Positions 40,183 through 62,135 of a stretch of 64,000 nt of DNA are shown piece after piece. The stretch lies in IMG/VR virus record IMGVR_UViG_3300025849_003344. The stretch is one strand, 5' to 3'. The translations under genes were made by a program, and so were the position numbers. Under the pieces are notes generated by a model that saw only the letters and a program-made list of their open reading frames with translations, was not told where the DNA came from and ran no database searches. The DNA comes from a virus. Taxonomy: Duplodnaviria > Caudoviricetes. Positions within the stretch are counted from its first letter, which is position 1. Each line of letters begins with the position of its first letter.

Positions 40183-40211
40183 TGTACAGATATTAGAAAT
40201 GGTGGTATAAT
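40183..40211 (+). promoter_or_regulatory. Plus-strand early-type promoter with no downstream sense gene
   Basis: TGTACA-N17(ending TGG)-TATAAT then TAAAGAG; faces minus-strand genes. Confidence 0.6.
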
Positions 40212-47145: not shown

Positions 47146-47628
47146 ATGATAGATCCGGTAACTGCAATTGGCTTGGCATCGGCTGCATACCGTGGCATCA
47201 AATCAGCCATACAAACAGGAAAAGAACTGCACGATATGGCCGGCCAACTTTCCCAATGGGCCGGCGCTATGAGCGACTTAGACTTTTCGCACAAGCAAGC
47301 TGAAAATCCACCAATGTTTAAGAAAATATTTGGAGCAAGTAAAATAGAAGCTAATGCTTTAGAAGTGTGGGGACATAAGCAAAAGGCAAAAGAATTGCGT
47401 GAAGATTTGCGCAGTCATATATCCTTATATTACGGACCATCGGCTTGGGATGAAATTGTACGCATTGAAGGTCAAATGCGGAAGAAACGTGCTGCAGAAG
47501 TTTATGCAGCCGAAGAACGCAAACAAATGATAATTGAATGGATAGTGGGCATTGTAATGGCAGTAGTATTATCTAGTGTATTAGGTGGCATCTTGTATTT
47601 GGTGGGTGCCGGAACAGGGAAATGGTAA
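47146..47628 (+). CDS. Hypothetical membrane protein (helical, C-terminal TM)
   Basis: MIDPVTAIGLASAAY...; C-terminal hydrophobic helix. Confidence 0.7.
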   Translation: MIDPVTAIGLASAAYRGIKSAIQTGKELHDMAGQLSQWAGAMSDLDFSHKQAENPPMFKKIFGASKIEANALEVWGHKQKAKELREDLRSHISLYYGPSAWDEIVRIEGQMRKKRAAEVYAAEERKQMIIEWIVGIVMAVVLSSVLGGILYLVGAGTGKW

Positions 47629-47629
47629 C

Positions 47630-47809
47630 ATGTGGTTATTAATATGGTTTGTGTTTATACCTGATCAAGGTATCAAATATTATCATTTAGATACTTTTAC
47701 ATCTGAGACGATGTGTAAGGTTGGAATGTCCCAGGCTGTGGTTTTGGCCTATGACAAAAAAGAAGTACTAGAGTGCATTTATATAAAGCCTACTAAAGAT
47801 AAGCTATAA
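47630..47809 (+). CDS. Small hypothetical protein with two Cys
   Basis: MWLLIWFVF...C...C; start moved to 47630. Confidence 0.5.
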   Translation: MWLLIWFVFIPDQGIKYYHLDTFTSETMCKVGMSQAVVLAYDKKEVLECIYIKPTKDKL

Positions 47810-48031
47810 ATTAAATTTTTTACATTTTGCAATGAAGGTAGTGCGCTTCAAGCCAAGGCGTTCACTTGCCTTGGTTTTATTCCAATCGTGATCTATTAAT
47901 GCTTTCTTGACTTTTTCGTAAATTATATCGTCAATCTCTTCATTTAGAGAGACAAATTCAGGCTCTGGCCAAATCTCATCGAATGTATCAAAAAATACCT
48001 CTTGTTCTATTTTTGTATCAGGTTCTAACAT
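47804..48031 (-). CDS. Fis-family helix-turn-helix protein
   Basis: KKALIDHDWNKTKASERLGLKRTTFIAKCKKFNL matches the Fis/NtrC HTH_8 pattern. Confidence 0.85.
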   Translation of the reverse strand: MLEPDTKIEQEVFFDTFDEIWPEPEFVSLNEEIDDIIYEKVKKALIDHDWNKTKASERLGLKRTTFIAKCKKFNL

Positions 48032-48036
48032 GTGAT

Positions 48037-48075
48037 TATTTATACTGTCAAAAAGTGGACAGTTGGGTATAAATA
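48037..48075. promoter_or_regulatory. Divergent pair of late promoters
   Basis: TATAAATA on minus (48037-48044) and on plus (48068-48075). Confidence 0.75.
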
Positions 48076-48105
48076 ATACCTGAGGGATATAAGGAAACTA
48101 GAAGT

Positions 48106-49098
48106 ATGCACAGATTTTTACTGATAGCCGCTTTTCTTGCGGCCGGGCCAGTCTATGGTCAAGTGGCTAATGATGCTGATGGTAATTATGATTCTACAAG
48201 TTATGTGAACACAGATAGCAATACGACTACTACGACCGATAGCACAGTAAATAGCACCAATACTAATAACAACACATCTGCTATTACGAGCACAAATACT
48301 AATACAAATAACAATAATAACACCTCGAATTCAACTTCGACTAATACTAATACTAACGCAAATACCAACACTAACACTAACACTAATACCAATAATACGA
48401 CAGTAAATTCTACTGGAAACAACACCAATACAAACACTAATACAAATACTAATACAAGTAATAACACAAATAATAACACAAATAATTCTACCGTAAACTC
48501 AACAAGTAATAACACAAACAATTCAACTGTAAATAGTACGTCCACCGTTGACCAGACGGTAAATTCAACTGCTACTAACACTAACACCAATACTAACACT
48601 AATAGTAACACAAATAATACCACAGTAAATTCTACTGGAAATAACACAAACACAAATCAGAACACATCCGATATTACTCAAACATTAAAGACTCCACCTC
48701 CATCGGCCATTGCGCCGACTGTTATGCTAGGCGGAAATGATACATGTACTGTTTCTTATTCAGCTGCAGTTCAAACTCAGATCTTAGGTGCTTCTGGTGG
48801 TGGTACAGTTCGTGACTTAAATTGTGAACGTCTTAAAAATGCCAAAACACTTTATAACATGGGCATGAAGGTAGCATCGGTTGCTTTGATGTGTCAAGAA
48901 AAATCAATATTTGAAGCTATGGAAATGGCCGGAACTCCATGTCCGTTCAAAGGTACTATTGGAACTGAAGCTCAAGCGTTGTGGGATAATGATCCTGCTC
49001 GGAAACCTGTGGCCCAAAGAGGAAATCAAGATAATGATGCAGTCAAGAAGATTCTTGCTGGTGTGTTATTTGTTGCTTTGTTGTCACTCGGCCTATAG
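48106..49098 (+). CDS. Secreted/membrane-anchored protein with a Thr/Asn low-complexity stalk and a Cys-containing C-terminal domain
   Basis: Signal peptide; long T/N/S repeat tract; four Cys; C-terminal TM helix. Confidence 0.8.
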   Translation: MHRFLLIAAFLAAGPVYGQVANDADGNYDSTSYVNTDSNTTTTTDSTVNSTNTNNNTSAITSTNTNTNNNNNTSNSTSTNTNTNANTNTNTNTNTNNTTVNSTGNNTNTNTNTNTNTSNNTNNNTNNSTVNSTSNNTNNSTVNSTSTVDQTVNSTATNTNTNTNTNSNTNNTTVNSTGNNTNTNQNTSDITQTLKTPPPSAIAPTVMLGGNDTCTVSYSAAVQTQILGASGGGTVRDLNCERLKNAKTLYNMGMKVASVALMCQEKSIFEAMEMAGTPCPFKGTIGTEAQALWDNDPARKPVAQRGNQDNDAVKKILAGVLFVALLSLGL

Positions 49099-51157
49099 CC
49101 AAACTACAACTAATGCTGAACTAGCGCCCGAAGATCCTTATGAGGCAGTGCCTGGTGTTCCGTATATCAGTGACAATTTAGTTGAAGATCCTCTATCGTG
49201 GAGTGGGCCCGAAAGTCAAGGAGATTGTACGTATCGTCCGGCTGGTCATGGAGCGTACGCTAGCGATGAAAGAATTTTTGCGGGTGATTGGTATTCTAAT
49301 CCAGGCTATCGTGGTTGCCCCCAAATATCTGAAGATGGTACAATGCGGTTTAGTTGGCGCCCTGAAGATAATATGGGGCTGGTTAATACCATTGATGATA
49401 ATAGTATGGACAGTAAGATCGCGGCTTACGCTGCAGCCTTTGGTGATCTAGGTATCACAGTCAATGGATACACATACTCATGGATAATTAAAAGTAAAGA
49501 TGCCGAGAATGCTGAGAATACAATAGCCGAAGGGCCTTATGATAAGAAGGGTTTGGGGTATAGTCAGGATTTATTATCTATTCAAGTTGAGTTTCTAGGT
49601 GAAACTAACGAAGATGTTCTGTTCGATAAAACGTATGATTATGACTATCAAATCGCAAACTGGACCACTTTTAGTGGACAAGAAGATTTTGAACTAGATG
49701 GCAAAGATGTTAGTAAGATTCGTATGACTATCAATGGATATGATGCTGGCTATAGTATGGGGTATTATGGACCTGAAGTTCGAGATGTACAATTACAGTT
49801 GTTGTTTACTGTAAAGGAAGCGCCTATTGATTGCGCCGCTGATCCTGGATCTAGTCCTACATGCTATGGCTATCAAGATGCTTTCAATGAATCAATTGGA
49901 TTACCGACTCAAGCTGAAATGATAGCTGATCTAGAAAAAGAGTATGGAGGTTATGATGATGGTATTCCAGAGTTTGATGGGCAAGATGATGGTATTCCAG
50001 AGTTTGATGGACAAGATGATGGTATTCCAGAGTTTGAATTGACTGAAGCTGAGAAGCAAGGTATGGATGCTGAAATAGAAGCAATGGGTAGCATTGTAGA
50101 TGATGGTTCTATGAATGGGTCATTTGAAGATGACGGTTCTATACCAATGGATGGATCATTTCCTGAAGATAGCTTTTCTGGGAATTTAGCGGAAGACTAT
50201 AGCGGCATTCCTTTGGATGATTTTAGTAGTAAGCCAGAAGAGGCCTTTGATAGTGAGCCTGACCAATTCTTTGAACCACTAGAAGAAATTGACGCCACAG
50301 GCCTCCCACCGGTTGATGAGGTGTTCATAGAAGAGCTTCCAATTTTAGATGATAACTTACCAACAGATATATCCAATGAAACACAAAAGGCGCCTAGCAT
50401 TTCTATTAATCCTATTGCTATTGCAAAAGGTGCAGCAAATGCTGGAAATGTTGTGGCAACTGAAGCAACGAGTGAGGCGCTTACTTCGTCAGCTGTATCA
50501 TCAGAATCCGATATAACATTTAGCACTAATCAAAGTCTTACTGCATCAATAAACAGCAATACAATAGATGCAAACCCTGGACAGACTAATGCTTTTGGCC
50601 AGATTGAAAGTAATATGGGCGGAGGATTTGATGGATCGGATAGTGGATATGGTGATGGTGCCGAAAATATTGGATCTAATGGTGATATTGTTATAGATAA
50701 TAATGCTATTGATTTTAGTCAACAGGATTTTAATTCCAACTTTGATAATACTAATGAATATGAAGTTGTTGGAATTACTGTAGAGATTGAGATTGACGCG
50801 ATTAGTTCTAAGCTCGTAAATAATGCTATTAAAAATATAGTTAACACACTTATCGAGCAAGGACAAATAGTGCCTGAAGAAGAACAGTCTCCAGGCCTAG
50901 ATAATAATGCAGAAGACGCTTTAGTTGAAGCGGCAATATCTGGTGATACTAGTGAAGATGCTCAGTCTGCATTACTTGGTTATAATCCAAACTTTCGAGT
51001 CTATGTAACTCCTCAGATGCCAGATAATACTTTCTATCTGCCAAAGGACATTTACCCTGGACAAGAAAATTATGATAACCCGGCCGGGCGTTTCTTTAGC
51101 GGTGCTTCGGATGAAAAGCATAAAGAAATGGTCCGGCAGCAATACGAAAGAAATTAA
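49034..51157 (+). CDS. Large acidic secreted protein (about 707 aa)
   Basis: Signal-like MMQSRRFLLVCYLLLCCHSAYSQ; globular N-terminal domain, acidic linker; start moved from 48911. Confidence 0.75.
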   Translation: MMQSRRFLLVCYLLLCCHSAYSQTTTNAELAPEDPYEAVPGVPYISDNLVEDPLSWSGPESQGDCTYRPAGHGAYASDERIFAGDWYSNPGYRGCPQISEDGTMRFSWRPEDNMGLVNTIDDNSMDSKIAAYAAAFGDLGITVNGYTYSWIIKSKDAENAENTIAEGPYDKKGLGYSQDLLSIQVEFLGETNEDVLFDKTYDYDYQIANWTTFSGQEDFELDGKDVSKIRMTINGYDAGYSMGYYGPEVRDVQLQLLFTVKEAPIDCAADPGSSPTCYGYQDAFNESIGLPTQAEMIADLEKEYGGYDDGIPEFDGQDDGIPEFDGQDDGIPEFELTEAEKQGMDAEIEAMGSIVDDGSMNGSFEDDGSIPMDGSFPEDSFSGNLAEDYSGIPLDDFSSKPEEAFDSEPDQFFEPLEEIDATGLPPVDEVFIEELPILDDNLPTDISNETQKAPSISINPIAIAKGAANAGNVVATEATSEALTSSAVSSESDITFSTNQSLTASINSNTIDANPGQTNAFGQIESNMGGGFDGSDSGYGDGAENIGSNGDIVIDNNAIDFSQQDFNSNFDNTNEYEVVGITVEIEIDAISSKLVNNAIKNIVNTLIEQGQIVPEEEQSPGLDNNAEDALVEAAISGDTSEDAQSALLGYNPNFRVYVTPQMPDNTFYLPKDIYPGQENYDNPAGRFFSGASDEKHKEMVRQQYERN
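49955..50037. repeat. 30-bp intragenic tandem repeat, about 2.8 copies (DDGIPEFDGQ)
   Basis: gatgatggtattccagagtttgatgg(g/a)caa. Confidence 0.9.
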
Positions 51158-51502
51158 ATGGCACAGAAAAAATTAGCCGTCAATTCAAAATATGCGGCAT
51201 ACGATTTAGATGGTGATGGAACAGTGACGGATGAAGAAATGGCAAAAGCCGAACATATGATTACAGTTGAAAATGAAGATAAAAAGCAGGACGCACAACG
51301 TAACATGGCATGGTTTGCTTTGTTTGGTATGTTGTTGTACCCATTTGCAGTAGTTATTGCAATTGCATTTGGACTTGACTCTGCCGGTACTATTCTAGGT
51401 AATATGGCACCAACATACTTTGTATCAGTTGCTGCAATTGTTGCTGCATTCTATGGTACTCAGGCATATGCAAGTAAGTCTACGAAAACAGAAGATTACT
51501 AA
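51158..51502 (+). CDS. EF-hand-like loop plus two-TM membrane protein (holin-like)
   Basis: YDLDGDGTVTDEE followed by two hydrophobic helices. Confidence 0.6.
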   Translation: MAQKKLAVNSKYAAYDLDGDGTVTDEEMAKAEHMITVENEDKKQDAQRNMAWFALFGMLLYPFAVVIAIAFGLDSAGTILGNMAPTYFVSVAAIVAAFYGTQAYASKSTKTEDY

Positions 51503-51514
51503 AAGGAGAATAGT

Positions 51515-52189
51515 ATGGCCGAGGTAGAATTTGGTGGAGTTAAATTTACTGGTGGGAAGATGGTTGCCGTGTTAACTGCGCTATCTACTCTCGGTGGTGC
51601 TACGTGGGGAGGATTTGAAGTCTATAAAGATTATATGGATATGAAAGAAATCATCCAAAATATCGATATAGATGAAATTGATGCCCGCAACAACGAAATA
51701 GAAATAAAACTCGATGCAGCTATTAGCTACACTCGAGACATTAAGAACGACCTTAAAGATGATATTGGTAGGATAGATGTTGGCTTAGATAAACTAAAGG
51801 CTAAAGTAGAAGCATCTAAAATTCACGTTGAATCTAGCGTAGAGAAATTCGAGGACAAGACTGAGATTGCTATAGAAAATTTTGAAGCAAAAACTAAAGC
51901 TCAATTAAGAGAAGCTGAGCAGGATCTTAAAAAAGCTCAGGCTGAGTTAGAAGCTATGGCAGACGAGCTTGATGCTGAGCTCGAAAAAATACGTGATACT
52001 ATGGGTGAAATCAGGTCTGAAAGCGGTGCAACCCTGCGAGACGTAGAAACGACAATGCGCGAATCTGAGAAAGACACGCGCGATATAATGAAAGGAACTA
52101 CTAAAGATATAAACGAAGCTATGGCTGCACTTAAGAAAGATATACAAGAGAGAATTGAGGAGGCCCTTGATAATCCACTAAATGACTAA
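51515..52189 (+). CDS. N-anchored coiled-coil protein
   Basis: N-terminal TM segment then a long charged heptad repeat. Confidence 0.7.
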   Translation: MAEVEFGGVKFTGGKMVAVLTALSTLGGATWGGFEVYKDYMDMKEIIQNIDIDEIDARNNEIEIKLDAAISYTRDIKNDLKDDIGRIDVGLDKLKAKVEASKIHVESSVEKFEDKTEIAIENFEAKTKAQLREAEQDLKKAQAELEAMADELDAELEKIRDTMGEIRSESGATLRDVETTMRESEKDTRDIMKGTTKDINEAMAALKKDIQERIEEALDNPLND

Positions 52190-53478: not shown

Positions 53479-53554
53479 TGGTACTCCCGGTAGGACTCGA
53501 ACCTACAACCAAAACGTTATGAGCGTTCTGCTCTGACCATTGAGCTACAGGAGT
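53479..53554 (-). tRNA. tRNA with CAT anticodon (probably Ile2, possibly Met)
   Basis: 76-nt cloverleaf, loop CTCATAA, TTCGA T-loop, encoded CCA. Confidence 0.9.
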
Positions 53555-53560
53555 ATTATT

Positions 53561-53638
53561 TGGTGATCTCTGTAGGACTCGAACCTACGACCTAGTCATT
53601 AGAAGTGACTTGCTCTAATCCAGCTGAGCTAAGAGACC
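53561..53638 (-). tRNA. tRNA-Arg(TCT)
   Basis: Cloverleaf, AGTCA-CTTCTAA-TGACT anticodon arm, encoded CCA. Confidence 0.93.
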
Positions 53639-54603: not shown

Positions 54604-55020
54604 TTATTTATAATATAGCGCAATTAGACTCTTTTCTAATGAGTTCGCTTCTATTTCCCAAGGCCTATCATCGTATTCCATGTCTAGGGGATATAGAACT
54701 TTCTCATAAAACACATCTCTTGCCCACTCTTGTTTCATCTGCTTAGTCACATATTGTTTGACGTGCACAAGCTCGTGTATTACAGTTGAGATGAGTTCGT
54801 ATTCTGATTGTGCTATATCAAGCCTAATCGTAAAGTCTCTATCTTCTTCATCCATGCAATCGCCATGAATACCTTCATTGGCTCTTAGTTTTCGCATAAG
54901 TTTAAATGTTACGCACACATTTTTGTGGCGTGGAAATAGATTCTTCTTAGCAAAAAACGCAGCTTCATATATGACATCTTCTAACTTTGCATTACGAGCG
55001 CCAATAAAATCTATTTCCAT
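54604..55020 (-). CDS. Zincin (SprT-like) metallopeptidase
   Basis: TVIHELVHVKQ (HExxH) and RPWEIEA. Confidence 0.8.
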   Translation of the reverse strand: MEIDFIGARNAKLEDVIYEAAFFAKKNLFPRHKNVCVTFKLMRKLRANEGIHGDCMDEEDRDFTIRLDIAQSEYELISTVIHELVHVKQYVTKQMKQEWARDVFYEKVLYPLDMEYDDRPWEIEANSLEKSLIALYYK

Positions 55021-55021
55021 A

Positions 55022-55627
55022 CTATTTTAATTTATTCACGACTACTTCTACATTGTCAGGCAATGAGACCTTTGGCTTACCGTGCATGTGATGTACGACG
55101 AATTGTGTGTTAGGAAACTCACGAAATAAGCCTTCCCAAATAGGTCGCCAGTTTACGGCTAATCGGTGTGTGTTAAATGCATCTCTATTTGAATTAAGTA
55201 CAAAGTCAGTGGTACTAATTAGATTAAAGTCAAATATTGAATCAAATCCGTACATATGGATCTCATCGCAGTTAAGCTTGTTTGCTGTATAATGAGTACA
55301 CATATGCCCACAGTTAAAGTCGGTGTAGTTATTAGCATATCGTGGTAGATCTAAATAGAAATCTTTAATATGCCTAGAAAAGCGCATATGGAATTGTGGA
55401 TTCATCTCAGTGAATTTTTTAGGCCTTGCACCCATAATCCAATCGTATCCACGTAAGTCCACACTACCCTCTTCAATAGCGCGACACATTTTAAAATCTA
55501 CGATAGCTGTACCATACACATTATCAATGGCGGTAGGTGGCAGATTGCATGTGAGCTTTAAGCCCTTAGCGGGTTTATAGAACCTGTAACTATCACCATT
55601 ACCAATAATATGAGCAACCTTAGGCAT
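55022..55627 (-). CDS. Rossmann-like protein (MptE/GT29-like), function uncertain
   Basis: AHIIGNGDS, NCGHM, EIHMYGFD motifs. Confidence 0.5.
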   Translation of the reverse strand: MPKVAHIIGNGDSYRFYKPAKGLKLTCNLPPTAIDNVYGTAIVDFKMCRAIEEGSVDLRGYDWIMGARPKKFTEMNPQFHMRFSRHIKDFYLDLPRYANNYTDFNCGHMCTHYTANKLNCDEIHMYGFDSIFDFNLISTTDFVLNSNRDAFNTHRLAVNWRPIWEGLFREFPNTQFVVHHMHGKPKVSLPDNVEVVVNKLK

Positions 55628-56288
55628 TCATTAAACTCCGAATATGTTCTTTACCCTTCGCACCAGTGTGATGCTTAATGCGGATATCTTTAACTTTGTT
55701 ACCATCAAGTCCATCTAATCGTAGGTAGTTATATTGTGGTGGTAACCTGTTTATGTATATAGCCTTTGCAAGAGGATCTAACATAGCGTGTAAGACTTCT
55801 TGATCTCCACGTTGCTGTGGATTTTCGAAGCATGCCTGTGCCCACCTTCTTAGCATCTCAGGTTTACCCTCAAATGCGACAACGCCTGAGTTGTACCATT
55901 CTTCTCCTGACCGTTTAGTCCATGGTGTATCCATACACATATTCAGTTTTTGTGCTAAACAATGATTCCAAATATCTGAAATATTACCAACCACTTCACA
56001 ATCAACATCAACCCATACTGTTCGTTTGTATGGTGAGTTCATCATTGCGCCAGGTTTTTTAAACCATGTTGCTTGACCAGTTGCTTGCTCAAGGTGTCCA
56101 ATAGAACTAACTTTTGTTTCAACATAGTCAATCATTTTTTGGGACATACCAAAATTTATAACTGACAATGGCATATCATTATGTTTATAATAATTCTCAA
56201 TAAACCAAGGGAGCATCCATTCAGCTTCTCTATCACATCCGGTTAGGACGCATTCACTTAAATCAGGTTTAGACATCAATAATCTCAT
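55620..56288 (-). CDS. GT-A fold glycosyltransferase
   Basis: WFKKP, VWVDVDCEV (DxD), WYNSGVV, GDQEVL, HHTG. Confidence 0.8.
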   Translation of the reverse strand: MRLLMSKPDLSECVLTGCDREAEWMLPWFIENYYKHNDMPLSVINFGMSQKMIDYVETKVSSIGHLEQATGQATWFKKPGAMMNSPYKRTVWVDVDCEVVGNISDIWNHCLAQKLNMCMDTPWTKRSGEEWYNSGVVAFEGKPEMLRRWAQACFENPQQRGDQEVLHAMLDPLAKAIYINRLPPQYNYLRLDGLDGNKVKDIRIKHHTGAKGKEHIRSLMNA

Positions 56289-56922
56289 ATCTTTGGTTAA
56301 AATTATGTTTGGCTTGACAACCGGCCGGAGCTTGAATTGTAGTAAATGTATCTTTGGCTTCTACAGGCCATGGATATATTTCTTCAAGGAAGGGAAAAGT
56401 CGCTTTATTTAGAAACACGTCTGTAGGACGAGCTTCCATAATTGCTTGTTGAATAAGCTGTTCAGCTCCCGCCGGATTTACTCTATACGCATGCGCACCA
56501 GGGAAATACGGTTTAGACACCAACGGTTGAACACCAAACCGTATAGGTTGATTGAACCTGCCATAAGACGGTTGTCCTAACGATACACATCCTTTAAACA
56601 CCATATTAGAACTAATATTATTAATACATATTGCGTCATGTTCAAAGATAGTAATCGATTCTTTGGTGCGTACACATTCTTGCCATAAGCTGAAATGTGA
56701 TAGGAATGCAGCAATACAATTTTCCGTACGAGAATATACTTCATCCATTGCTGCAACATTAATGCCAAAGGCTTTTACTATACCATTTAAATCATCGGCC
56801 GGAGTAGTAGCTTTCCATTTTTCAATAGTAAGTCCACCTGTGCTTAAACCAGATTTAATACACCGCTCTGCAGCCTTAACAGACTTTTCGTTATCAGCTA
56901 TAGTAATTACGTAATGTTTCAT
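56269..56922 (-). CDS. Glycosyltransferase family 25
   Basis: AAFLSHFSLWQEC...ITIFEHDA; GAHAYRVNP.GA..L. Confidence 0.8.
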   Translation of the reverse strand: MKHYVITIADNEKSVKAAERCIKSGLSTGGLTIEKWKATTPADDLNGIVKAFGINVAAMDEVYSRTENCIAAFLSHFSLWQECVRTKESITIFEHDAICINNISSNMVFKGCVSLGQPSYGRFNQPIRFGVQPLVSKPYFPGAHAYRVNPAGAEQLIQQAIMEARPTDVFLNKATFPFLEEIYPWPVEAKDTFTTIQAPAGCQAKHNFNQRYEIIDV

Positions 56923-57617
56923 AATGTAGTTGTACTAGGAAGTCCTTGTACCCTTGTATAATATCGTTTGGTGACCCGTAGGAAATTAAAGTTCTGATAA
57001 CAAAGAAGCGCGTCGTTTGGCCATGCTCCAATTCTATTAACAGTTTCGATAACCTTCTTAGCTGCGCTTGGTGTAATTATATATGCACTGTTTCCGGCTA
57101 ACCCTTGAGGCACATCCCATGTGTCAATCTTAGGTAATTGTTGTATTACCTTATCATTTTTTTGTATAATATCGTGGAATAATCCTGCCATACGTGTAGC
57201 ACCACGAGGATCATTGATGCCCAGCACACAGTCATATCCTGGCTCAGCCTCGCCAGGATCAACTAGCTTATTAGTAAATATTGCATCATGTTCTAGAATT
57301 AAATAATTCTCAGATGATTTAGCAGCTTCTTTCCACAACCTATAATGACTCATAAAACATGCTACGCGTTTACGCGGATCTGCACCAGAGTATGCACTTA
57401 GTTTCAAACCTGTTGCTATATCAGATTGCTGACCTTCCCACGGATAAGTCCAACGTAAACCTTCACGTGTAAAAAGCTTATTACTTTCATCTGCCGTAAT
57501 AGCATCGAAGGTTTTAATATCAAACTCATTCTCAAATAAGGCCGAAGATTCTCTTAATACTCCGGCCCCTGTTTCAGAAAGATGATTGCCTTTAATAGTT
57601 ATTACTCTAGCTTGCAT
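56919..57617 (-). CDS. Glycosyltransferase family 25
   Basis: FDAITA, ACFMSHYRLWKE...LILEHDA, GNSAYIITPSAAKK. Confidence 0.85.
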   Translation of the reverse strand: MQARVITIKGNHLSETGAGVLRESSALFENEFDIKTFDAITADESNKLFTREGLRWTYPWEGQQSDIATGLKLSAYSGADPRKRVACFMSHYRLWKEAAKSSENYLILEHDAIFTNKLVDPGEAEPGYDCVLGINDPRGATRMAGLFHDIIQKNDKVIQQLPKIDTWDVPQGLAGNSAYIITPSAAKKVIETVNRIGAWPNDALLCYQNFNFLRVTKRYYTRVQGLPSTTTL

Positions 57618-58239
57618 TTCTTAACTCAATAATATAACTGTCAGGTGCTCCAGTTAGCTTACGCTGATCATGACGCTTGATATTCATACCAGATTTTTCT
57701 ATTGTTCCAAGGAACATCTCATTATCAAGATGGTTATATCGGTCAGGATATTTCTGTAACCATTCTAGTTGTAGTTCTTTAGTAGTCATAATCTCTAGTG
57801 GAAACACATCTTCAATAAAGAAGACACCATCGTCAGCTAAAAATTGTGATAGATTTTTAAACGTCTGCATGTTGGCTTTAGGTGTATGCATTCCGTCATC
57901 AATGATAACATCAAACTTAATGTCTCCCCACTTCGAACGAATTTCACGTGCAATAGATGGATCAGTACTACTCGCTTTAATCCAATCAGCACGGTCATAC
58001 GTGTAACAATTTAAATCTTGAGGTTTAGTTCGAGTAAAAATGTCTACTCCATACATATTAGCCATAGGTAAGTATTGGAGAAAAGCTTCTGTGCTATGGC
58101 CGTTAAATACGCCGACCTCAAGAATGTTGATACGCTTATTCATCATCGTATCCATCACTGGTGCATATACACGATCATATTGATGCTTACGCGTTTTGTC
58201 ACATCCATACTTATTAAATAGATCGCCTAGTTCACTCAT
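57607..58239 (-). CDS. Class I SAM-dependent methyltransferase (glycan O-methyltransferase-like)
   Basis: GCDK...H.YD..Y, ILEVGVFNGHS, FDVIIDDGMH, FFIEDV. Confidence 0.85.
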   Translation of the reverse strand: MSELGDLFNKYGCDKTRKHQYDRVYAPVMDTMMNKRINILEVGVFNGHSTEAFLQYLPMANMYGVDIFTRTKPQDLNCYTYDRADWIKASSTDPSIAREIRSKWGDIKFDVIIDDGMHTPKANMQTFKNLSQFLADDGVFFIEDVFPLEIMTTKELQLEWLQKYPDRYNHLDNEMFLGTIEKSGMNIKRHDQRKLTGAPDSYIIELRNAS

Positions 58240-58927
58240 TATCTAATCTCCAATAGTTTTTGGTCGCAGCACTATTAAAATCAAATCCCCAATGGTCAAT
58301 ATCTTTCTTGTACCAATCAGCGACAATTTGAATCGTCTTATCATTATATATCTTCTGATAAGTGCCCTCATTTAGTGCTGTTACATTCCTAGCACGAGAC
58401 ATTTGCGGAATTTTAAAATACGCAATTAATTCGGCATTAAGATGTTCGAATCTTAACATATCGCATTTAACATTACCCTTTTCATCTGAGACGTGGTCAA
58501 ACGCCGGATACCAACCACGAATAGCACGATGCCACATGAATGGATGATTCCCCCATTTGTGACGCTCTTCAAGAAATGCTTCAAAGCTAGAAACATCTGC
58601 ATAGGTTGGGTCAGCCTTTTTTTCTACTTGGATTACTTTTTTTGCGAAAAAATATCGAGATACCACACGACTCCAAGGGTTCCTAATAATGCCGAAAGCT
58701 CCAAATTGTTTAGTGTAATCTGGGTTAAGATCTCTCCAACGGGCATGCTCAATTCCATGATGATCTCCTGTCATTGCCATAGTATCTAGTAGCTCTTGAG
58801 TATATTCACGACTCTTGTGTGTATTTTGATTATTGACTAAAATCTTATCTCTTAAGAATGGGCTATGACGAATGGTCATGCCAGCATTTTTAGGGATATG
58901 AACAAAAATCTTTTTATTATCCAACAT
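58232..58927 (-). CDS. Sulfotransferase family 2 (carbohydrate sulfotransferase-like)
   Basis: FVHIPKNAGMTI (5'-PSB), IIRNPWSRVVSRY (3'-PB), LRFEHL, YKKDIDHWGF. Confidence 0.88.
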   Translation of the reverse strand: MLDNKKIFVHIPKNAGMTIRHSPFLRDKILVNNQNTHKSREYTQELLDTMAMTGDHHGIEHARWRDLNPDYTKQFGAFGIIRNPWSRVVSRYFFAKKVIQVEKKADPTYADVSSFEAFLEERHKWGNHPFMWHRAIRGWYPAFDHVSDEKGNVKCDMLRFEHLNAELIAYFKIPQMSRARNVTALNEGTYQKIYNDKTIQIVADWYKKDIDHWGFDFNSAATKNYWRLDNE

Positions 58928-59714
58928 GTTTCATTAATTCCTCTACATTTTCTCCACGGTTTGGCAACTTGTCTTTCAAAAAGAAGTGTACAAAATTGCA
59001 CTCAGGAACTTTATTCATTTCAATTCCAGTAAACAAACCATTCCAATTGAAAGTTAGGTTTTTTACCATCATCTTTGATTCCTTTACCCAAACATTTAGT
59101 AGCGTCTGATCTGTTGACCATTTCCAATTACCAATTCCATCTATGAAAGCTTTAAATTCAGGACGCATAAGAAATTGCATCGGCGTTTGATTACGAGTAT
59201 GTTGTAGGATACCTTTATTTAGTACCATCATCCCCATGTTGTAAAAGTCAGCCCCAGCTCCACTCTTATGCTTCCAATCAAACAAATGATTAATGTTTGA
59301 CATGCCATATTGCATACGAGAATAGTTTGCAATCTTATGAAGGTACTGTGGAGTGACAGGCATGTCTCGTTCAAGTACTCCGCCAAAATCATATTCCATC
59401 GGCACTTCATCAAAAATATTAGGAGATCCTGGACGAATCCAAATATCTGAGTCAATGATTGCCACAGAGTCATATTCTTTTAGATAAGCAAAAGCATTTT
59501 CTTTTTCAAAAATAGGCAGATATCCGCCATGCTTTTCATAAGATTCTTTACTACGATTTGTAGCAAAAACATCAGGCTTAATGCGCAAAATAGGCTGGCG
59601 CTGAATAACATGGTCTATATTATGTGCTTTACAATATTCTGCTACAGAAGCCGTACACGCATCATATAACTTTGATTTCTTACCGACATATACCTGGTAG
59701 ATCAAACGTTTCAT
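58917..59714 (-). CDS. GT-A fold glycosyltransferase (GT8-like)
   Basis: AIIDSDIWI (DxD), FYNMGMMV, TDQTLLN, FVHFF. Confidence 0.8.
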   Translation of the reverse strand: MKRLIYQVYVGKKSKLYDACTASVAEYCKAHNIDHVIQRQPILRIKPDVFATNRSKESYEKHGGYLPIFEKENAFAYLKEYDSVAIIDSDIWIRPGSPNIFDEVPMEYDFGGVLERDMPVTPQYLHKIANYSRMQYGMSNINHLFDWKHKSGAGADFYNMGMMVLNKGILQHTRNQTPMQFLMRPEFKAFIDGIGNWKWSTDQTLLNVWVKESKMMVKNLTFNWNGLFTGIEMNKVPECNFVHFFLKDKLPNRGENVEELMKHVG

Positions 59715-59717
59715 TAT

Positions 59718-59942
59718 TCACTCCCCTTCAAATTCGCAAATAATATATTTTGCGATATGCATTGCTCTATCATATGATGGTCTAAGTCTATTAGAAGATC
59801 GACTGTTATTAATAAACCATATGAGACTATGTATACCACTGTTCTTATGCTCTTCAGGAATCTTATAGTTTCGTGTAATAGAGTCGAATTCAGTTCTAAG
59901 ATTTAGAATATTAGCTAGGCTGATAGGGTGTGATAAGTTCAT
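59718..59942 (-). CDS. Hypothetical protein (about 74 aa)
   Basis: Start moved to MNLSHP; fills the gap. Confidence 0.45.
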   Translation of the reverse strand: MNLSHPISLANILNLRTEFDSITRNYKIPEEHKNSGIHSLIWFINNSRSSNRLRPSYDRAMHIAKYIICEFEGE

Positions 59943-60531
59943 AGAGTGACTTCCAATCTGTGCAAACCTGGATACTATTTGGATTATGTTTTTCTTCCCG
60001 CATGTGCATATTATGTCCATGTTCTATAAGATATGATTCAAGACCTAGTTTAGAACCAAGCTCAGCATTCTCAACCTTGTCTTCAACCCAAATTAATCCA
60101 CTATCTCTATATGGTTCTAGCACTTCATCCTTATCGGCCCCAGTATCACAAAAAATAAATTTAGTGAATGTTGTTTCGCCAAATAGCTTTTTAGTATTAG
60201 CAATGCGTAAATCCTGAGCATGAGTGTCTAAGGACAAGGAAGTAATCATATGAAATGTAAAACCATGCAGCCTATGAAGGAGATCTACGTAATACATTGC
60301 ATCACGAAGAGGTGGAAGAAATCCAATTGCGGCTGATTCGTTGAAGATCTTAACTACACTCTTTTTTTCAGTATTATTTAAACCATATCGTTCACCCATA
60401 TCATAGGCATATTTGTTCTCAGGTTTAATAGTATAACCTCTGTGCGACATCCAAGTATTGAACGCAAATTCCCAATTCATTAGTACGCCATCACAATCTG
60501 TGAGTATTACTTTATCCATATTGTTAATCAT
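59911..60531 (-). CDS. HAD-family 5'-nucleotidase
   Basis: ILTDCDGVL (DxD), ITS, WVEDK..NA. Confidence 0.85.
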   Translation of the reverse strand: MINNMDKVILTDCDGVLMNWEFAFNTWMSHRGYTIKPENKYAYDMGERYGLNNTEKKSVVKIFNESAAIGFLPPLRDAMYYVDLLHRLHGFTFHMITSLSLDTHAQDLRIANTKKLFGETTFTKFIFCDTGADKDEVLEPYRDSGLIWVEDKVENAELGSKLGLESYLIEHGHNMHMREEKHNPNSIQVCTDWKSLYELITPYQPS

Positions 60532-61211
60532 CCGAACAACACCTCTTTCTTTTGGCTATTATATAGTTCAATAGTTTCATGCAATTTTTGTGTCCAATTG
60601 TCTCTATGCTCTTTAAAGACAATAGGTTTGCCACCATCTACGTCCATAAGAATAGCAAGATTAGGAATAGCCATTCCGGTTTGCTCTTCCCACATGATAG
60701 CATATGCCGCGGCTTGTTGAAAATATCCACCAATCATAGATTTTTTCTTAGGCCATTTAGAAGTCTTAAAGTCTACGATAGTAGGAACACCTTCAAATAT
60801 ACAAACACAATCACATGTGCCTGCCATTTTGAGATGATCACTAAAAAGCGCAACCTCTAGCTCATAGATTTTTTCTATGCCATCATTTAAAATTGGTTTT
60901 AGATTTACTAGACTTTGCATAATATGTGGCGAGATGCCCTTAGCATAGTCTGGATTATTTGAAAGATATTGCTCTATCAAATCGTGAACTGCGGTTCCAC
61001 GCTTGGCGGCTTTACTGCCGATCTTATTGGCCTCTTCTTCGCCTACTCTTGCTTTCCATTTAGCAATACTTGCAGCGCTTAGAATGCCAGTAACTGTTGT
61101 TACTGAAGGATAGGCCACTCCATCGGGTGTAACGTATCGTCTGCCATTGTCTGTAGTTTCTCGATTAAGAGTATCATAACCCTTTGAGATCTTTTCATGT
61201 ATAAACTGCAT
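60528..61211 (-). CDS. PD-(D/E)xK (RecB-like) exonuclease
   Basis: YPSVTTVTG, RGTAVH, AGTCDCV...IVDFKTS, QQAAAYA. Confidence 0.88.
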   Translation of the reverse strand: MQFIHEKISKGYDTLNRETTDNGRRYVTPDGVAYPSVTTVTGILSAASIAKWKARVGEEEANKIGSKAAKRGTAVHDLIEQYLSNNPDYAKGISPHIMQSLVNLKPILNDGIEKIYELEVALFSDHLKMAGTCDCVCIFEGVPTIVDFKTSKWPKKKSMIGGYFQQAAAYAIMWEEQTGMAIPNLAILMDVDGGKPIVFKEHRDNWTQKLHETIELYNSQKKEVLFG

Positions 61212-61265
61212 GTGATTCCTAACATAATATTTTACTATTATACCATATCACATGCAGCTTGTACA
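61203..61265 (-). promoter_or_regulatory. Early promoter TGTACA-N17-TATAAT plus an RNA hairpin able to cover the exonuclease start codon
   Basis: -35 at 61260-61265, -10 at 61237-61242; inverted repeat CTGCATGTGAT (61206-61216 and 61247-61257). Confidence 0.75.
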
Positions 61266-61268
61266 CAC

Positions 61269-62135
61269 TTAACCTAGAAGTTTTTCTAACGTATTTGGTC
61301 CAGCAATACCATCAGGAGTTAAACCTTTTGACGCTTGCCATTTTTTAAGCGCTCGCTCAGTTCCTGGTCCAAACGAACCGTCAGCTCCGATGCCTAATGC
61401 TTCTTGCATCATTTTTACACCAGCACCACGTGAACCTTTACGCAATACACCAATGTCATCAACATCAGGTGCATCATCATTATCATTTAATGAGTCAAGC
61501 ACGACAGGAGCACCAAGGACAGCCATCGCTTTTACATAACGAGCTTGGCGATCAGCCAAACCAATATTACCACCATTGATTTTTTTGGTCATACGTACTA
61601 CATCATCAGTGTCTGCAATATCATTTAGATTGTTTGCATCCCAAAACCAACAAGCACTTTCGACAGCGCCTTTTGGCGTAGCAACATACCGTGAAGCTTT
61701 TTCAGCATCCATACCGACTGACTTACCAAATCGCGTATAGTTCTCACGACCAGTAAGTTGTTTCAATCCACGACCTCGGAACATCCATCCATCTCCTGGA
61801 TTTACGTTACCCATTTTATATTTACGAAACTCATCCTGATATACGTAGTTTGCAATCTTTTCTGGTTTGCGTGCATATTCGGCAGCATTACGTTTAGTTC
61901 CGCCTGTACCAAAATACCGGCCGAATACAGCGTTCAAAGCTTTTTCACTATAGTTTAGATTTTCAGATAAACTACGGAAGTTGTTTGATTCGTGTGCACA
62001 CTGAGAAATGAAATGTGCGATCCTTCGTTTAGAAGTAATACCATACTTTGGCATAATGGCAGCCAAGGCTTCATGCCACGCTTTCACATCTTTGTTACCT
62101 GGGATTAGTTTTGCTAGTTCTGCTTCGTTTAGCAT
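61269..62135 (-). CDS. GH19-family endolysin with C-terminal peptidoglycan-binding domain
   Basis: FISQCAHES, ENLNYS, FRGRGLKQLTGRENY, SACWFW, INGG.IGL.DR; LRKGSRG...DGIAGPNT. Confidence 0.92.
   Translation of the reverse strand: MLNEAELAKLIPGNKDVKAWHEALAAIMPKYGITSKRRIAHFISQCAHESNNFRSLSENLNYSEKALNAVFGRYFGTGGTKRNAAEYARKPEKIANYVYQDEFRKYKMGNVNPGDGWMFRGRGLKQLTGRENYTRFGKSVGMDAEKASRYVATPKGAVESACWFWDANNLNDIADTDDVVRMTKKINGGNIGLADRQARYVKAMAVLGAPVVLDSLNDNDDAPDVDDIGVLRKGSRGAGVKMMQEALGIGADGSFGPGTERALKKWQASKGLTPDGIAGPNTLEKLLG

What the first reader, a model, noticed from the sequence alone, without database searches (positions are those of the whole stretch)
54604..59714. Complete glycan-building and decorating cassette (GT8-like, sulfotransferase, methyltransferase, two GT25, GT-A, GT29/MptE-like)
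Seen: seven overlapping genes with DxD, GT25, PAPS-binding and SAM-binding motifs. With 8406-10948 and 44259 the window carries about six GTs, two methyltransferases and two sulfotransferase-like genes. Known: GT25 enzymes extend LPS/LOS oligosaccharides; family-2 sulfotransferases sulfate carbohydrates. Inference: the phage builds a sulfated, methylated oligosaccharide on its own proteins (shielding, adhesion) or remodels host LPS (superinfection exclusion). No nucleotide-sugar synthesis genes are in the window, so host donors are implied.
Basis: partly seen in the sequence, partly recalled or inferred. Interest (0 to 1): 0.75.

Follow-up and report, generated by a model that had tools for sequence, protein, structure and literature searches.

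The report
Conserved phage glycan-building operon, target unknown
An uncultured marine T4-like phage carries a tightly packed operon of five sugar-adding enzymes, a sulfate-adding enzyme and a methyl-adding enzyme that recurs in the same gene order in dozens of ocean phage contigs, so these phages build their own decorated sugar chain, but what it is attached to is not yet known.

Summary
On the minus strand, 55022-59714 encodes seven overlapping enzyme genes:
- a GT8/GT24-like retaining glycosyltransferase (fold)
- a Sulfotransfer_2 enzyme with both PAPS-binding motifs
- a Methyltransf_24 enzyme
- two diverged GT25 enzymes
- a glycogenin-like GT8-type enzyme
- a 201-aa protein with no Pfam match whose model has the sialyltransferase/Maf/WaaZ (CMP-ulosonic-acid transferase) fold

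The eighth ORF in the stated range (54604-55020) is a small HExxH metallopeptidase-like protein, not a transferase.

The seven genes are colinear in 43 of 45 complete IMG/VR loci at 40-80% identity. Variable slots hold extra methyl-, sulfo- and glycosyltransferases. I found the operon in no cultured phage, and the 201-aa protein in no genuine bacterial genome.

The acceptor is unresolved. I favour the phage's own late proteins (about 0.4) over host LOS/LPS core (about 0.3). Promoter evidence is mixed.

Earlier runs of this scan found what look like related cassettes in other phage genomes. The literature I searched treats such genes only generically, as "LPS-related".

The parts
58917..59714 (-). 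o8: 265-aa retaining GT-A glycosyltransferase, GT8/GT24-like. First gene of the cassette.
   Evidence: No Pfam hit. AF2 pLDDT 92. Foldseek against PDB: UGGT catalytic domain E 5e-9, XXYLT1, LARGE1, PBCV-1 A64R. D88-x-D90 and H243 are invariant in 37 sequences. The Atlas holds viral fusions of this fold with GT9 and with methyltransferases.
58232..58927 (-). o7: 231-aa PAPS-dependent carbohydrate-type sulfotransferase.
   Evidence: PF03567 at 26.5 bits against a cut-off of 22; phrog_3347. The 5'-PSB motif (HIPKNAGMT) and 3'-PB motif (RNPWSRVVS) are kept in at least 90% of 68 homologues.
57607..58239 (-). o6: 210-aa SAM-dependent methyltransferase (Methyltransf_24; weak CmcI/rhamnosyl O-methyltransferase similarity). 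It occupies a variable slot.
   Evidence: PF13578 at 31.7 bits against 26.3; phrog_21658. Motif I (LExGvfxGxS) and the DDGxH motif are conserved. In some loci it is missing or replaced by other methyltransferases.
56919..57617 (-). o5: 232-aa GT25 glycosyltransferase.
   Evidence: PF01755 E 3.7e-14, 53.5 bits against 24. The SHxxLW and LEHDA (ExD) motifs are conserved.
56269..56922 (-). o4: 217-aa GT25 glycosyltransferase, a distant paralogue of o5.
   Evidence: PF01755 E 7.9e-9, 36.1 bits against 24. 25% identical to o5, E 3e-10. SHxxLW and FEHDA are conserved.
55620..56288 (-). o3: 222-aa GT8-like (glycogenin-like) GT-A glycosyltransferase.
   Evidence: PF01501 below cut-off (16.1 bits against 24.3). 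Profile A3 hits glycogenin-1 at E 7e-4 with DxD and the C-terminal H-x-G aligned. 12 of 28 family members hit PF01501. D94/D96 are invariant.
55022..55627 (-). o2: 201-aa protein with the sialyltransferase/Maf/MptE/WaaZ-like fold; probable CMP-ulosonic-acid (Kdo or nonulosonate) transferase. It belongs to a phage-restricted family that no Pfam model covers.
   Evidence: No Pfam, PHROG or NCBIfam hit. AF2 pLDDT 93. VIA-align: Maf 5mu5 Z 11.6, Cst-I Z 9.8, MptE Z 9.2. Atlas fold search: TM 0.70 to a bacterial WaaZ_KDO_III cluster. The N-terminal GNG, CN, NCGH and YGFD motifs are invariant.
54604..55020 (-). o1: 138-aa HExxH metallopeptidase-like protein (SprT-like, below cut-off). Last gene of the transcription unit and not a glycan enzyme.
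   Evidence: PF10263 at 17.4 bits against 25.6; phrog_10499 E 3.5e-23. HExxH and PWEIEA are conserved. Its position is not fixed in relatives.
59718..60020 (-). o9: 100-aa conserved small ORF directly upstream of o8. In relatives it carries an internal TATAAATA; here the site reads TATACATA.
   Evidence: Homologues in 31 loci. The motif is present in 21 of 65 distinct upstream sequences against 5.6% expected. Window sequence.
59911..60531 (-). o10: 206-aa phrog_420 protein, probably an NT5C/HAD-type nucleotidase. Same transcription unit.
   Evidence: phrog_420 E 4.8e-31. Atlas feature neighbours carry PF06941 NT5C, a family present on under half of the members of most of those clusters.
60528..61211 (-). 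o11: PD-(D/E)XK exonuclease, first gene behind the early-type promoter.
   Evidence: PF12705; phrog_298 E 6.6e-66.
61237..61265 (-). Sigma-70/early-type promoter, TGTACA-N17-TGgTATAAT, in the only intergenic gap upstream of the cassette.
   Evidence: The pattern occurs twice in the window against 0.13 expected.

Best explanation
Region 55022-59714 is a phage-specific, vertically inherited operon of seven translationally coupled soluble enzymes. They assemble a short, defined oligosaccharide of about five sugars in the infected cell's cytoplasm and decorate it. Inferred from family stereochemistry: the two retaining GT8/GT24-like enzymes (o8, o3) would make alpha linkages, and the two GT25 enzymes (o5, o4) beta linkages. 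The sialyltransferase/Maf/WaaZ-fold enzyme (o2) would add an ulosonic acid, most likely Kdo from CMP-Kdo, which the phage lineage makes itself with KdsA/KdsB. o6 would O-methylate and o7 O-sulfate the chain, using SAM and PAPS. The cassette contains no priming phosphoglycosyl transferase, flippase, polymerase or membrane protein, so the chain must be built directly on its final acceptor. My preferred acceptor is the phage's own late proteins (fibres or other virion surface proteins), glycosylated before assembly to give the particle a variable, negatively charged glycan coat. I put the enzyme-cassette part at about 0.85. The virion-protein acceptor is inference only, at about 0.4, and that is the confidence given for the whole statement.
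For: Enzyme identities: Pfam hits above cut-off for GT25 (twice), Sulfotransfer_2 and Methyltransf_24; confident folds for o8 and o2; a glycogenin profile hit for o3; catalytic motifs kept in at least 90% of homologues. One pathway: the gene order o8-o7-o6-o5-o4-o3-o2 is colinear in 43 of 45 loci, with overlapping stops and starts, at 40-80% identity. Viral proteins also fuse the o8 fold to methyltransferases or to GT9. Diversifying decoration: the variable slots hold extra Methyltransf_24/11, second Sulfotransfer_2 copies, a third GT25 and a second o8 paralogue. Soluble enzymes: no hydrophobic segment in any cassette protein. Donor supply: relative G002 has adjacent DAHP_synth_1 (KdsA-type) and CTP_transf_3 (KdsB-type) genes, plus a UDP-glucose dehydrogenase and an epimerase. 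Maf enzymes are reported to put Kdo on Ser/Thr of proteins (bioRxiv 10.1101/2020.06.03.131540). Phage-only distribution: the only 9 hits for o2 in 185,579 species genomes are MAG contigs, most of which (6 of 9) carry other cassette genes and in three cases PhoH or the exonuclease as well; the other three have no further phage marker in the stretch fetched. No cultured phage carries o7. In favour of a protein acceptor: virion proteins are the abundant acceptor made de novo in the cytoplasm (inference). A glycosyltransferase (phrog_1962) lies in the fibre module about 130 nt downstream of a TATAAATA at 11087. The cultured cyanophage S-8S55 has a GT25-like domain inside a 621-aa 2OG-oxygenase protein directly after its tail fibre gene. 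One third of relatives have a perfect T4-type late promoter motif about 0.5 kb upstream of o8. The best structural matches of o8 include protein-glycan enzymes and the PBCV-1 capsid-glycosylation enzyme.
Against: No glycan, acceptor or activity has been observed; every function is inferred from sequence and predicted fold. In this phage the cassette lies not in the structural module but behind an early-type promoter, together with an exonuclease and a nucleotidase. The late-promoter motif of the relatives is degenerate here, reading TATACATA. GT8, GT25 and sialyltransferase-like enzymes together with Kdo are exactly the toolkit of LOS/LPS core synthesis, and that is how the literature interprets such phage genes (PMC7029224, PMC12801897). 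The donor of o2 is not shown, and its fold is shared with pyrophosphokinases (MptE Z 9.2, thiamin pyrophosphokinase Z 7). The DS-rich fibre sequences sit inside structural repeats and need not be acceptor sites. A PAPS source is not identified.
Confidence: 0.4

Rival explanations
1. Host envelope remodelling. The enzymes act at the cytoplasmic face of the inner membrane on nascent lipid A-Kdo/heptose core (LOS-type synthesis, then flipped by host MsbA) or on a capsule primer. This would give infected cells a phage-specific sulfated and methylated outer core that blocks superinfection or stops progeny from re-adsorbing.
For: The family set matches the LOS outer-core toolkits: GT8 like LgtC/RfaI/J, GT25 like LgtB/LgtE/LpsA, and GT42-like or WaaZ-like enzymes (family knowledge). 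LOS-type synthesis needs no Wzx/Wzy or priming enzyme. KdsA/KdsB are present in a relative. An early-type promoter lies upstream in this phage. This is also the published interpretation for pelagimyophage and cyanomyophage glycosyltransferases (PMC7029224, PMC12801897). The o2 model has TM 0.70 to bacterial WaaZ_KDO_III LPS enzymes.
Against: Only newly made LPS could be changed, and an infected, non-growing cell inserts little of it (inference). The genes have no close cellular homologues and are inherited as a phage-only module rather than as host-derived morons. None of the proteins has an obvious membrane-association segment. No lytic T4-like phage has been shown to remodel LPS in the papers I read.
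Confidence: 0.3
2. DNA hypermodification. Some or all of the transferases glycosylate hydroxymethyl-cytosine in phage DNA, as T4 alpha- and beta-glucosyltransferases do. Kdo or hexoses would be the added sugars.
For: The cassette sits in an early-type unit with an exonuclease and a nucleotidase. In relative G002 the KdsA/KdsB genes lie next to a thymidylate-synthase-like (hydroxymethylase-type) gene. An unchecked note reports an hmC module in this genome (e1-5375410).
Against: Five glycosyltransferases plus sulfation and methylation would be far more elaborate than any DNA sugar modification I know of (one to a few sugars). The DNA glucosyltransferases I know of (T4 alpha- and beta-GT) are GT-B enzymes of other families; that is my own knowledge and was not tested here. 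According to the other agent's report, a separate module in the genome already accounts for base modification. A sulfated chain would add charge to packaged DNA.
Confidence: 0.07
3. Another acceptor. The operon makes a free or lipid-linked decorated oligosaccharide, or glycosylates a non-virion phage or host protein (for example an exported late protein), for a role such as signalling, decoy or osmoprotection.
For: Nothing in the cassette identifies an acceptor. A late-promoter block of exported or membrane proteins lies 3-7 kb away at 47146-52189 (unchecked notes e1-5375383 and e1-5375389). In two relatives a RuBisCO-like protein and a nucleotidyltransferase are inserted in the cassette, which hints at unusual sugar chemistry.
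Against: There is no transporter or export gene in the cassette. Nothing positively supports this reading.
Confidence: 0.12

Closest known systems
LPS-related / cell-wall-modification glycosyltransferase clusters of pelagimyophages and cyanomyophages (PMC7029224; S-SCSM2R, S-SCSM1 and P-SSM2 in PMC12801897)
   Same: Marine T4-like phages carrying several GT8-, GT24- and GT25-type genes, with KdsA/KdsB in S-SCSM2R. They are untested and read as O-chain or cell-wall modification.
   Different: [quoted passage not shown] Here there is a fixed seven-gene, translationally coupled operon with a sulfotransferase and an unmodelled sialyltransferase-fold enzyme, conserved in order across dozens of contigs. 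No cultured phage in the collection has the sulfotransferase. The nearest complete genome, C48C1, has only the o2 homologue, a homologue of the neighbouring nucleotidase gene o10 and a distant methyltransferase.
LOS outer-core synthesis of Neisseria, Haemophilus and Campylobacter (LgtC GT8; LgtB/LgtE/LpsA GT25; Cst-I/II GT42)
   Same: The same combination of enzyme families; soluble or peripheral enzymes that extend an acceptor one sugar at a time without a polymerase or flippase; an ulosonic-acid transferase of the same fold (Cst-I Z 9.8).
   Different: Sequence identity is negligible: o3 and o8 are below the GT8 cut-off and o2 hits no Pfam model. No lipid acceptor has been shown. The cassette adds sulfation and methylation. 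It is phage-only.
Chlorovirus PBCV-1 capsid glycosylation (A064R, A111/114R; PMC9614988, PMC7826918; PDB 2p6w)
   Same: A virus-encoded, cytoplasmic, multi-glycosyltransferase plus methyltransferase machinery that builds a short unusual glycan with methylated sugars on the virus's own capsid protein. o8 matches A64R domain 1 (TM by target about 0.7).
   Different: That is a eukaryotic virus with N-linked glycans, multidomain enzymes rather than an operon, and no sulfotransferase or ulosonic-acid transferase.
Mycobacteriophage virion O-glycosylation (Freeman et al. 2023, Cell Host Microbe 31:1216, PMC10527164; cited from the reference list of PMC12363180, not read here)
   Same: Phage-encoded glycosyltransferases, with an O-methyltransferase in some clusters, decorate capsid and tail proteins.
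   Different: Those genes lie inside the structural operon of siphoviruses of Gram-positive-type hosts. The enzyme families differ and no sulfation is involved.
Maf flagellin glycosyltransferases (PDB 5mu5; bioRxiv 10.1101/2020.06.03.131540)
   Same: This is the best structural match of o2 (Z 11.6, 165 residues aligned). These are CMP-ulosonic-acid-dependent O-glycosylation enzymes acting on protein Ser/Thr, with Kdo among the accepted donors.
   Different: o2 is a minimal 201-aa catalytic domain without Maf's flanking flagellin-binding domains. Identity is 10%, and activity is untested.

Membership tests
CAZy GT25 / Pfam PF01755 (o5, o4) | Profile match above the curated cut-off | tested here: met
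   53.5 and 36.1 bits against a cut-off of 24
CAZy GT25 / Pfam PF01755 (o5, o4) | Conserved SHxxLW and acidic-x-acidic (EDD-type) metal/nucleotide motif | tested here: met
   SHxxLW and (L/F)EHDA are kept in at least 90% of 41-44 homologues; the motif reads E-H-D rather than E-D-D
CAZy GT25 / Pfam PF01755 (o5, o4) | Inverting beta-glycosyl transfer to an LOS or hydroxylysine acceptor | not testable with these tools
   Needs an enzyme assay
CAZy GT8 / Pfam PF01501 (o3, o8) | Profile match above the curated cut-off | tested here: not met
   o3 scores 16.1 bits against 24.3; o8 has no hit. Among o3 homologues, 12 of 28 hit at E of 0.01 or better. I therefore call them GT8-like and do not file them as GT8 members.
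CAZy GT8 / Pfam PF01501 (o3, o8) | GT-A fold with DxD and a C-terminal His, as in retaining GT8/GT24 enzymes | tested here: met
   o8 model against UGGT (E 5e-9), XXYLT1 and LARGE1, with D88/D90/H243 invariant. o3 profile against glycogenin (E 7e-4) with DxD and H-x-G aligned. o3 itself was not folded.
Pfam Sulfotransfer_2 PF03567 (o7) | Profile match above cut-off, plus the 5'-phosphosulfate and 3'-phosphate binding motifs | tested here: met
   26.5 bits against 22. HIPKNAGMT and RNPWSRVVS are conserved.
Pfam Sulfotransfer_2 PF03567 (o7) | PAPS-dependent sulfation of a carbohydrate | not testable with these tools
   Needs an assay. No clear PAPS-synthesis gene was found; the only candidate is a weak P-loop match in G002.
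Class I SAM methyltransferase, Methyltransf_24 (o6) | Profile above cut-off and the glycine-rich SAM motif I | tested here: met
   31.7 bits against 26.3. LExGvfxGxS is conserved.
Sialyltransferase-like superfamily (GT42/GT29, Maf/DUF115, MptE-like PF01973, WaaZ_KDO_III PF27901) (o2) | Sequence-profile membership in one of these families | tested here: not met
   No Pfam, PHROG or NCBIfam hit for o2, nor a Pfam hit for 10 distant family representatives. The PDB profile search found nothing relevant.
Sialyltransferase-like superfamily (GT42/GT29, Maf/DUF115, MptE-like PF01973, WaaZ_KDO_III PF27901) (o2) | Shared fold over the whole catalytic domain | tested here: met
   VIA-align: Maf Z 11.6 (165 aa, rmsd 3.5), Cst-I Z 9.8, MptE Z 9.2, ST3Gal Z 8.2. 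Atlas: TM 0.70 to a WaaZ_KDO_III cluster, 0.67 to MptE-like, 0.64 to GT29. Foldseek against PDB is weak only (E 1e-2).
Sialyltransferase-like superfamily (GT42/GT29, Maf/DUF115, MptE-like PF01973, WaaZ_KDO_III PF27901) (o2) | Use of a CMP-activated ulosonic acid donor | not testable with these tools
   Indirect support only: a KdsA/KdsB pair in relative G002. The pyrophosphokinase members of this fold leave a non-glycosyltransferase activity possible.
Phage virion-glycosylation systems (mycobacteriophage type) | Glycosyltransferase genes embedded in the late structural operon next to their acceptor proteins | tested here: not met
   The cassette lies behind an early-type promoter with exonuclease and nucleotidase genes, and there is no perfect TATAAATA upstream on its strand. 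A separate glycosyltransferase (10277-10960) does lie in the fibre module, and 21 of 65 relatives have TATAAATA upstream of o8.
LOS/LPS core assembly system | Acts on lipid A-Kdo/heptose acceptors at the inner membrane | not testable with these tools
   No membrane segment was found. The acceptor is unknown.
SprT-like metallopeptidase PF10263 (o1) | Profile above cut-off; HExxH motif | tested here: inconclusive
   17.4 bits against 25.6. HExxH is conserved in 29 sequences.

The most novel reading that the evidence does not exclude
A large clade of uncultured ocean T4-like phages runs an autonomous cytoplasmic protein-glycosylation pathway. It coats virion fibres (or other late phage proteins) with a Kdo-containing, sulfated and methylated oligosaccharide, using a new minimal family of Maf/sialyltransferase-fold enzymes. 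The methyl, sulfate and sugar decorations vary between lineages through gene duplication inside the operon. As far as I know, this would be the first sulfated glycan and the first protein-linked Kdo-type sugar on any phage particle.
Probability: 0.35. Interest if true: 0.8.

Novelty: new variant of a known kind. Interest (0 to 1): 0.6.

Why it matters
Glycosyltransferase genes in marine T4-like phages are routinely labelled "LPS-related auxiliary metabolic genes" and left at that. This operon is not a host-derived moron. It is an old, phage-only, order-conserved pathway: o2 alone has 951 clusters at 90% identity in public data, and there are 172 IMG/VR loci for the sulfotransferase. It has its own donor supply in at least one relative and built-in slots for variable decoration. 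If the product sits on virions, phage particles in the sea carry charged glycan coats, which would affect adsorption, aggregation, grazing and decay. If it sits on host LPS, abundant lytic phages rewrite the surface of infected cells. Either way, the 201-aa enzyme is a compact new member of the sialyltransferase fold that could be tested as a Kdo or nonulosonate transferase.

Tried and rejected
- **PDB sequence and profile searches:** these gave nothing usable for o2, o8, o7 and o10. For o5 they gave only weak, non-significant GT25 rows, E 0.3-0.5.
- **Foldseek for o2:** the PDB and Swiss-Prot models gave only weak rows, E about 1e-2. The fold assignment rests on VIA-align and the Atlas search.
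- **Megablast against cultured phages:** no match for the region.
- **Other genes claimed in the window:** 44259-44924 as a second sulfotransferase has no similarity to o7 and no family hit. 8406-9296 and 9697-10317 as glycosyltransferase and methyltransferase have motifs visible by eye only (DFD, GGWYG) and no profile support.
- **PAPS supply:** the only candidate is a 140-aa P-loop protein in G002 that matches APS_kinase over about half the model and matches AAA_18/AAA_33 equally well. I did not accept it.
- **GT9 in G002:** one match below cut-off, E 6.6e-4. I did not use it.
- **DS dipeptide as a sequon:** it is enriched three-fold in two fibre-like proteins but embedded in YDSATGxxT / TDSDIRG repeats, so structural repeats explain it as well.
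- **pI and hydrophobicity:** these do not separate a membrane-peripheral from a soluble role.
- **RNA evidence:** one marine metatranscriptome holds short contigs (150-254 nt, 91-99% identical) over parts of o2/o3, o4, o5, o7/o8 and o9/o10. Contigs show neither strand nor start, and DNA carry-over cannot be excluded.
- **Apparent in-frame stops in L015/L016:** these came from my own ORF-end calculation and are not pseudogenes.
- **Not run:** Complex prediction was not used, because I claim no specific binding pair.

Full report
**What the window is.** The window belongs to an uncultured marine T4-like myovirus. Its baseplate gp6 homologue is 42% identical to Phage C48C1 (Kyanoviridae by its record) and 34% to Pelagibacter phage HTVC008M. 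Many baseplate and tail PHROGs are present. The assembly itself is not held. An 18-kb IMG/VR fragment, G001, is 98% identical over part of the region.

**Checking the observation.** The minus strand of 54604-59714 carries eight ORFs of 138-265 aa. Successive genes overlap by 4-20 nt, except for a 1-nt gap before the last.

Pfam places four of them above the curated cut-offs:
- 56919-57617 and 56269-56922 in GT25
- 57607-58239 in Methyltransf_24
- 58232-58927 in Sulfotransfer_2

The two GT25 proteins are distant paralogues, 25% identical.

The remaining three enzymes needed more work.
- **o8 (58917-59714):** I built alignments from homologues in related loci and folded the protein. The model (pLDDT 92) is a retaining GT-A enzyme. 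Its best matches are the UGGT catalytic domain (GT24, E 5e-9), XXYLT1 and LARGE1 (GT8), and PBCV-1 A64R. The DxD motif and a C-terminal His are invariant.
- **o3 (55620-56288):** its profile hits glycogenin (GT8) at E 7e-4 with the DxD aligned, and 12 of 28 family members touch PF01501.
- **o2 (55022-55627):** it has no hit in Pfam, PHROGs or NCBIfam. The model (pLDDT 93) aligns best to the flagellin glycosyltransferase Maf (Z 11.6), then Cst-I (9.8), MptE (9.2) and mammalian sialyltransferases. In the Atlas fold search it aligns to a bacterial WaaZ_KDO_III cluster (TM 0.70), an MptE-like cluster and a GT29 cluster.

The eighth ORF, 54604-55020, is a small HExxH protein, SprT-like below cut-off, and is not part of the glycan chemistry. 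Catalytic motifs are kept in at least 90% of homologues: PKxxGT and RxPxxRxxS in the sulfotransferase, SHxxLW and ExD in both GT25s, and SAM motif I in the methyltransferase.

**It is a conserved module, not a variable island.**
- A scan of IMG/VR with the sulfotransferase found 172 loci.
- In the 80 loci fetched, every locus that spans both ends was checked for gene order. The order o8-o7-o6-o5-o4-o3-o2 is colinear in 43 of 45, at 40-80% protein identity, mostly with overlapping stop and start codons.
- PhoH, a PD-(D/E)XK exonuclease and a phrog_420 protein usually lie upstream.
- o2 alone has 951 clusters at 90% identity in the large protein collection, all unnamed. A profile search of 1.8 billion representatives finds only 225 at E of 1e-3 or better. 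Ten distant representatives have no Pfam family.
- In 185,579 species genomes, o2 relatives occur on nine MAG contigs of unrelated phyla. Six of them carry other cassette genes, and three of those also carry PhoH or the exonuclease. These look like mis-binned phage DNA.
- No cultured phage has the sulfotransferase. C48C1 has only the o2 homologue (40%), a homologue of the neighbouring gene o10 (phrog_420, 50%) and a distant methyltransferase.

**Variable slots.** Between o8/o7, o7/o5 and o5/o4 the relatives carry extra genes:
- further Methyltransf_24 and Methyltransf_11 enzymes
- second Sulfotransfer_2 copies (25-30% identical to o7)
- a third GT25
- a second o8 paralogue (43%)
- a glutaredoxin
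- a 2OG-Fe(II) oxygenase
- in two loci, a nucleotidyltransferase with a RuBisCO-like protein

Viral proteins that fuse the o8 fold to methyltransferases or to GT9 heptosyltransferases exist in the Atlas. This is the pattern expected of one glycan pathway with a constant scaffold and diversifying decorations.

**Donors.** Relative G002 is 151 kb, 83% complete by CheckV, and its cassette is 53-75% identical. It encodes adjacent KdsA-type (DAHP_synth_1, E 5e-53) and KdsB-type (CTP_transf_3, E 1e-21) genes, next to a thymidylate-synthase-like gene, a UDP-glucose dehydrogenase and an epimerase. Other readers' unchecked notes place kdsA-kdsB and an ADP-heptose pathway in this same genome. A phage-made CMP-Kdo supply fits o2 being a CMP-ulosonic-acid transferase. 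Maf enzymes have been reported to transfer Kdo to Ser/Thr of proteins (bioRxiv 10.1101/2020.06.03.131540). I found no convincing PAPS-synthesis gene.

**Timing.** In this phage the only intergenic gap upstream of the cassette (61212-61268) holds TGTACA-N17-TGgTATAAT. That pattern occurs twice in the window against 0.13 expected. It would drive the exonuclease, the NT5C-like nucleotidase, o9 and the cassette as an early-type unit. There is no perfect T4-type late motif (TATAAATA) on this strand between 54613 and 64000.

However, 21 of 65 distinct relatives have a perfect TATAAATA 300-900 nt upstream of o8, against 5.6% expected; these sequences are not phylogenetically independent. In most of the twelve relatives I inspected, the motif lies inside the coding sequence of the o9 homologue. 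In this phage and its closest relatives the same site reads TATACATA or TATAGATA. Timing therefore does not decide the target.

**The target.** None of the seven proteins has a membrane segment. The cassette has no priming transferase, flippase or polymerase. So the chain must be built directly on its final acceptor in the cytoplasm. Two acceptors fit.

*Host LOS/LPS core:* the families are the classic LOS toolkit, and this is the published reading for such phage genes (PMC7029224, PMC12801897).

*The phage's own late proteins:* I weight this somewhat higher, for these reasons.
- They are the abundant acceptor made de novo, whereas an infected cell inserts little new LPS (inference).
- The module is phage-only and vertically inherited.
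- A separate glycosyltransferase (phrog_1962, 10277-10960) lies in the fibre module about 130 nt downstream of a late motif at 11087.
- The cultured cyanophage S-8S55 carries a GT25-like domain inside a 2OG-oxygenase protein directly after its tail fibre gene.
- A third of the relatives have a late motif upstream.

DNA glycosylation is unlikely for a five-transferase, sulfating and methylating pathway. I found no evidence that decides among these readings.

**Comparison with what is known, and novelty.** The kind of thing is known: virus-encoded glycan machinery, and glycosyltransferase clusters in marine T4-like phages. In the papers I searched I did not find these features:
- this fixed seven-gene operon
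- its sulfotransferase
- the unmodelled minimal sialyltransferase-fold family
- its variable decoration slots

Earlier runs of this scan reported what look like related cassettes in other phage genomes, with the same open question about the target. My results agree with those reports but rest on my own tests. I rate it a new variant of a known kind, interest 0.6.

Noticed in passing
L056:9293-11073 and L063:5491-7265: A RuBisCO-like protein (PF00016 E 2e-24, 354 aa) and an NTP_transferase (238 aa) are inserted inside the glycan cassette of two related phage contigs. This may be an unusual sugar-phosphate or nucleotide-sugar step.
   Followed up: no
window 4196-8023, 3-3479 and 3501-3809 (minus strand): The Asp-Ser dipeptide is about three-fold over expectation in two fibre-like proteins (34 against 11.1, and 17 against 7.2), while the reverse dipeptide Ser-Asp is not. 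Most copies lie in YDSATGxxT / TDSDIRG repeats. It could be an acceptor motif or simply a structural repeat.
   Followed up: partly
window 40183-40211 (+) and 61237-61265 (-): TGTACA-N17-TGGTATAAT occurs exactly twice (0.13 expected). It is probably this phage's early promoter type. The plus-strand copy faces a minus-strand gene block.
   Followed up: partly
window 8406-10960 (minus strand): A second small cluster lies inside the fibre module, with TATAAATA motifs at 11087 and 8417. It holds a glycosyltransferase (phrog_1962, DxD FLDLD), a methyltransferase-like ORF (GGWYG, no profile hit), a DUF454 membrane protein and a DFD-motif ORF with no family hit.
   Followed up: partly
L100 (Synechococcus phage S-8S55, OQ504983.1 29319-31184): A 621-aa protein annotated as 2OG-Fe(II) oxygenase contains a GT25-like domain. 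It follows two more 2OG oxygenases directly after a tail fibre gene, which recalls hydroxylase plus GT25 pairs that modify collagen-type proteins.
   Followed up: partly
L097:6628-9461 (relative G002): KdsA-like and KdsB-like genes lie immediately upstream of a thymidylate-synthase-like (possible hydroxymethylase) gene, with a UDP-glucose dehydrogenase and an epimerase nearby.
   Followed up: partly
Relatives, between o9 and o8 (for example L012:6854-7183, L052:3120-3485, L065:4822-5163): Many relatives have an extra ORF of about 110-135 aa with an EF-hand-like DxNGDGHIxxEE motif directly before the first glycosyltransferase. It is absent from this window.
   Followed up: no
window 53479-53638 (minus strand): Two tRNA genes, tRNA-Met (CAT) and tRNA-Arg (TCT), lie about 1 kb downstream of the cassette.
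   Followed up: no
window 61269-62135 (minus strand): An endolysin-like gene (phrog_181 E 2e-75) sits between PhoH and the exonuclease, immediately upstream of the early-type promoter.
   Followed up: no
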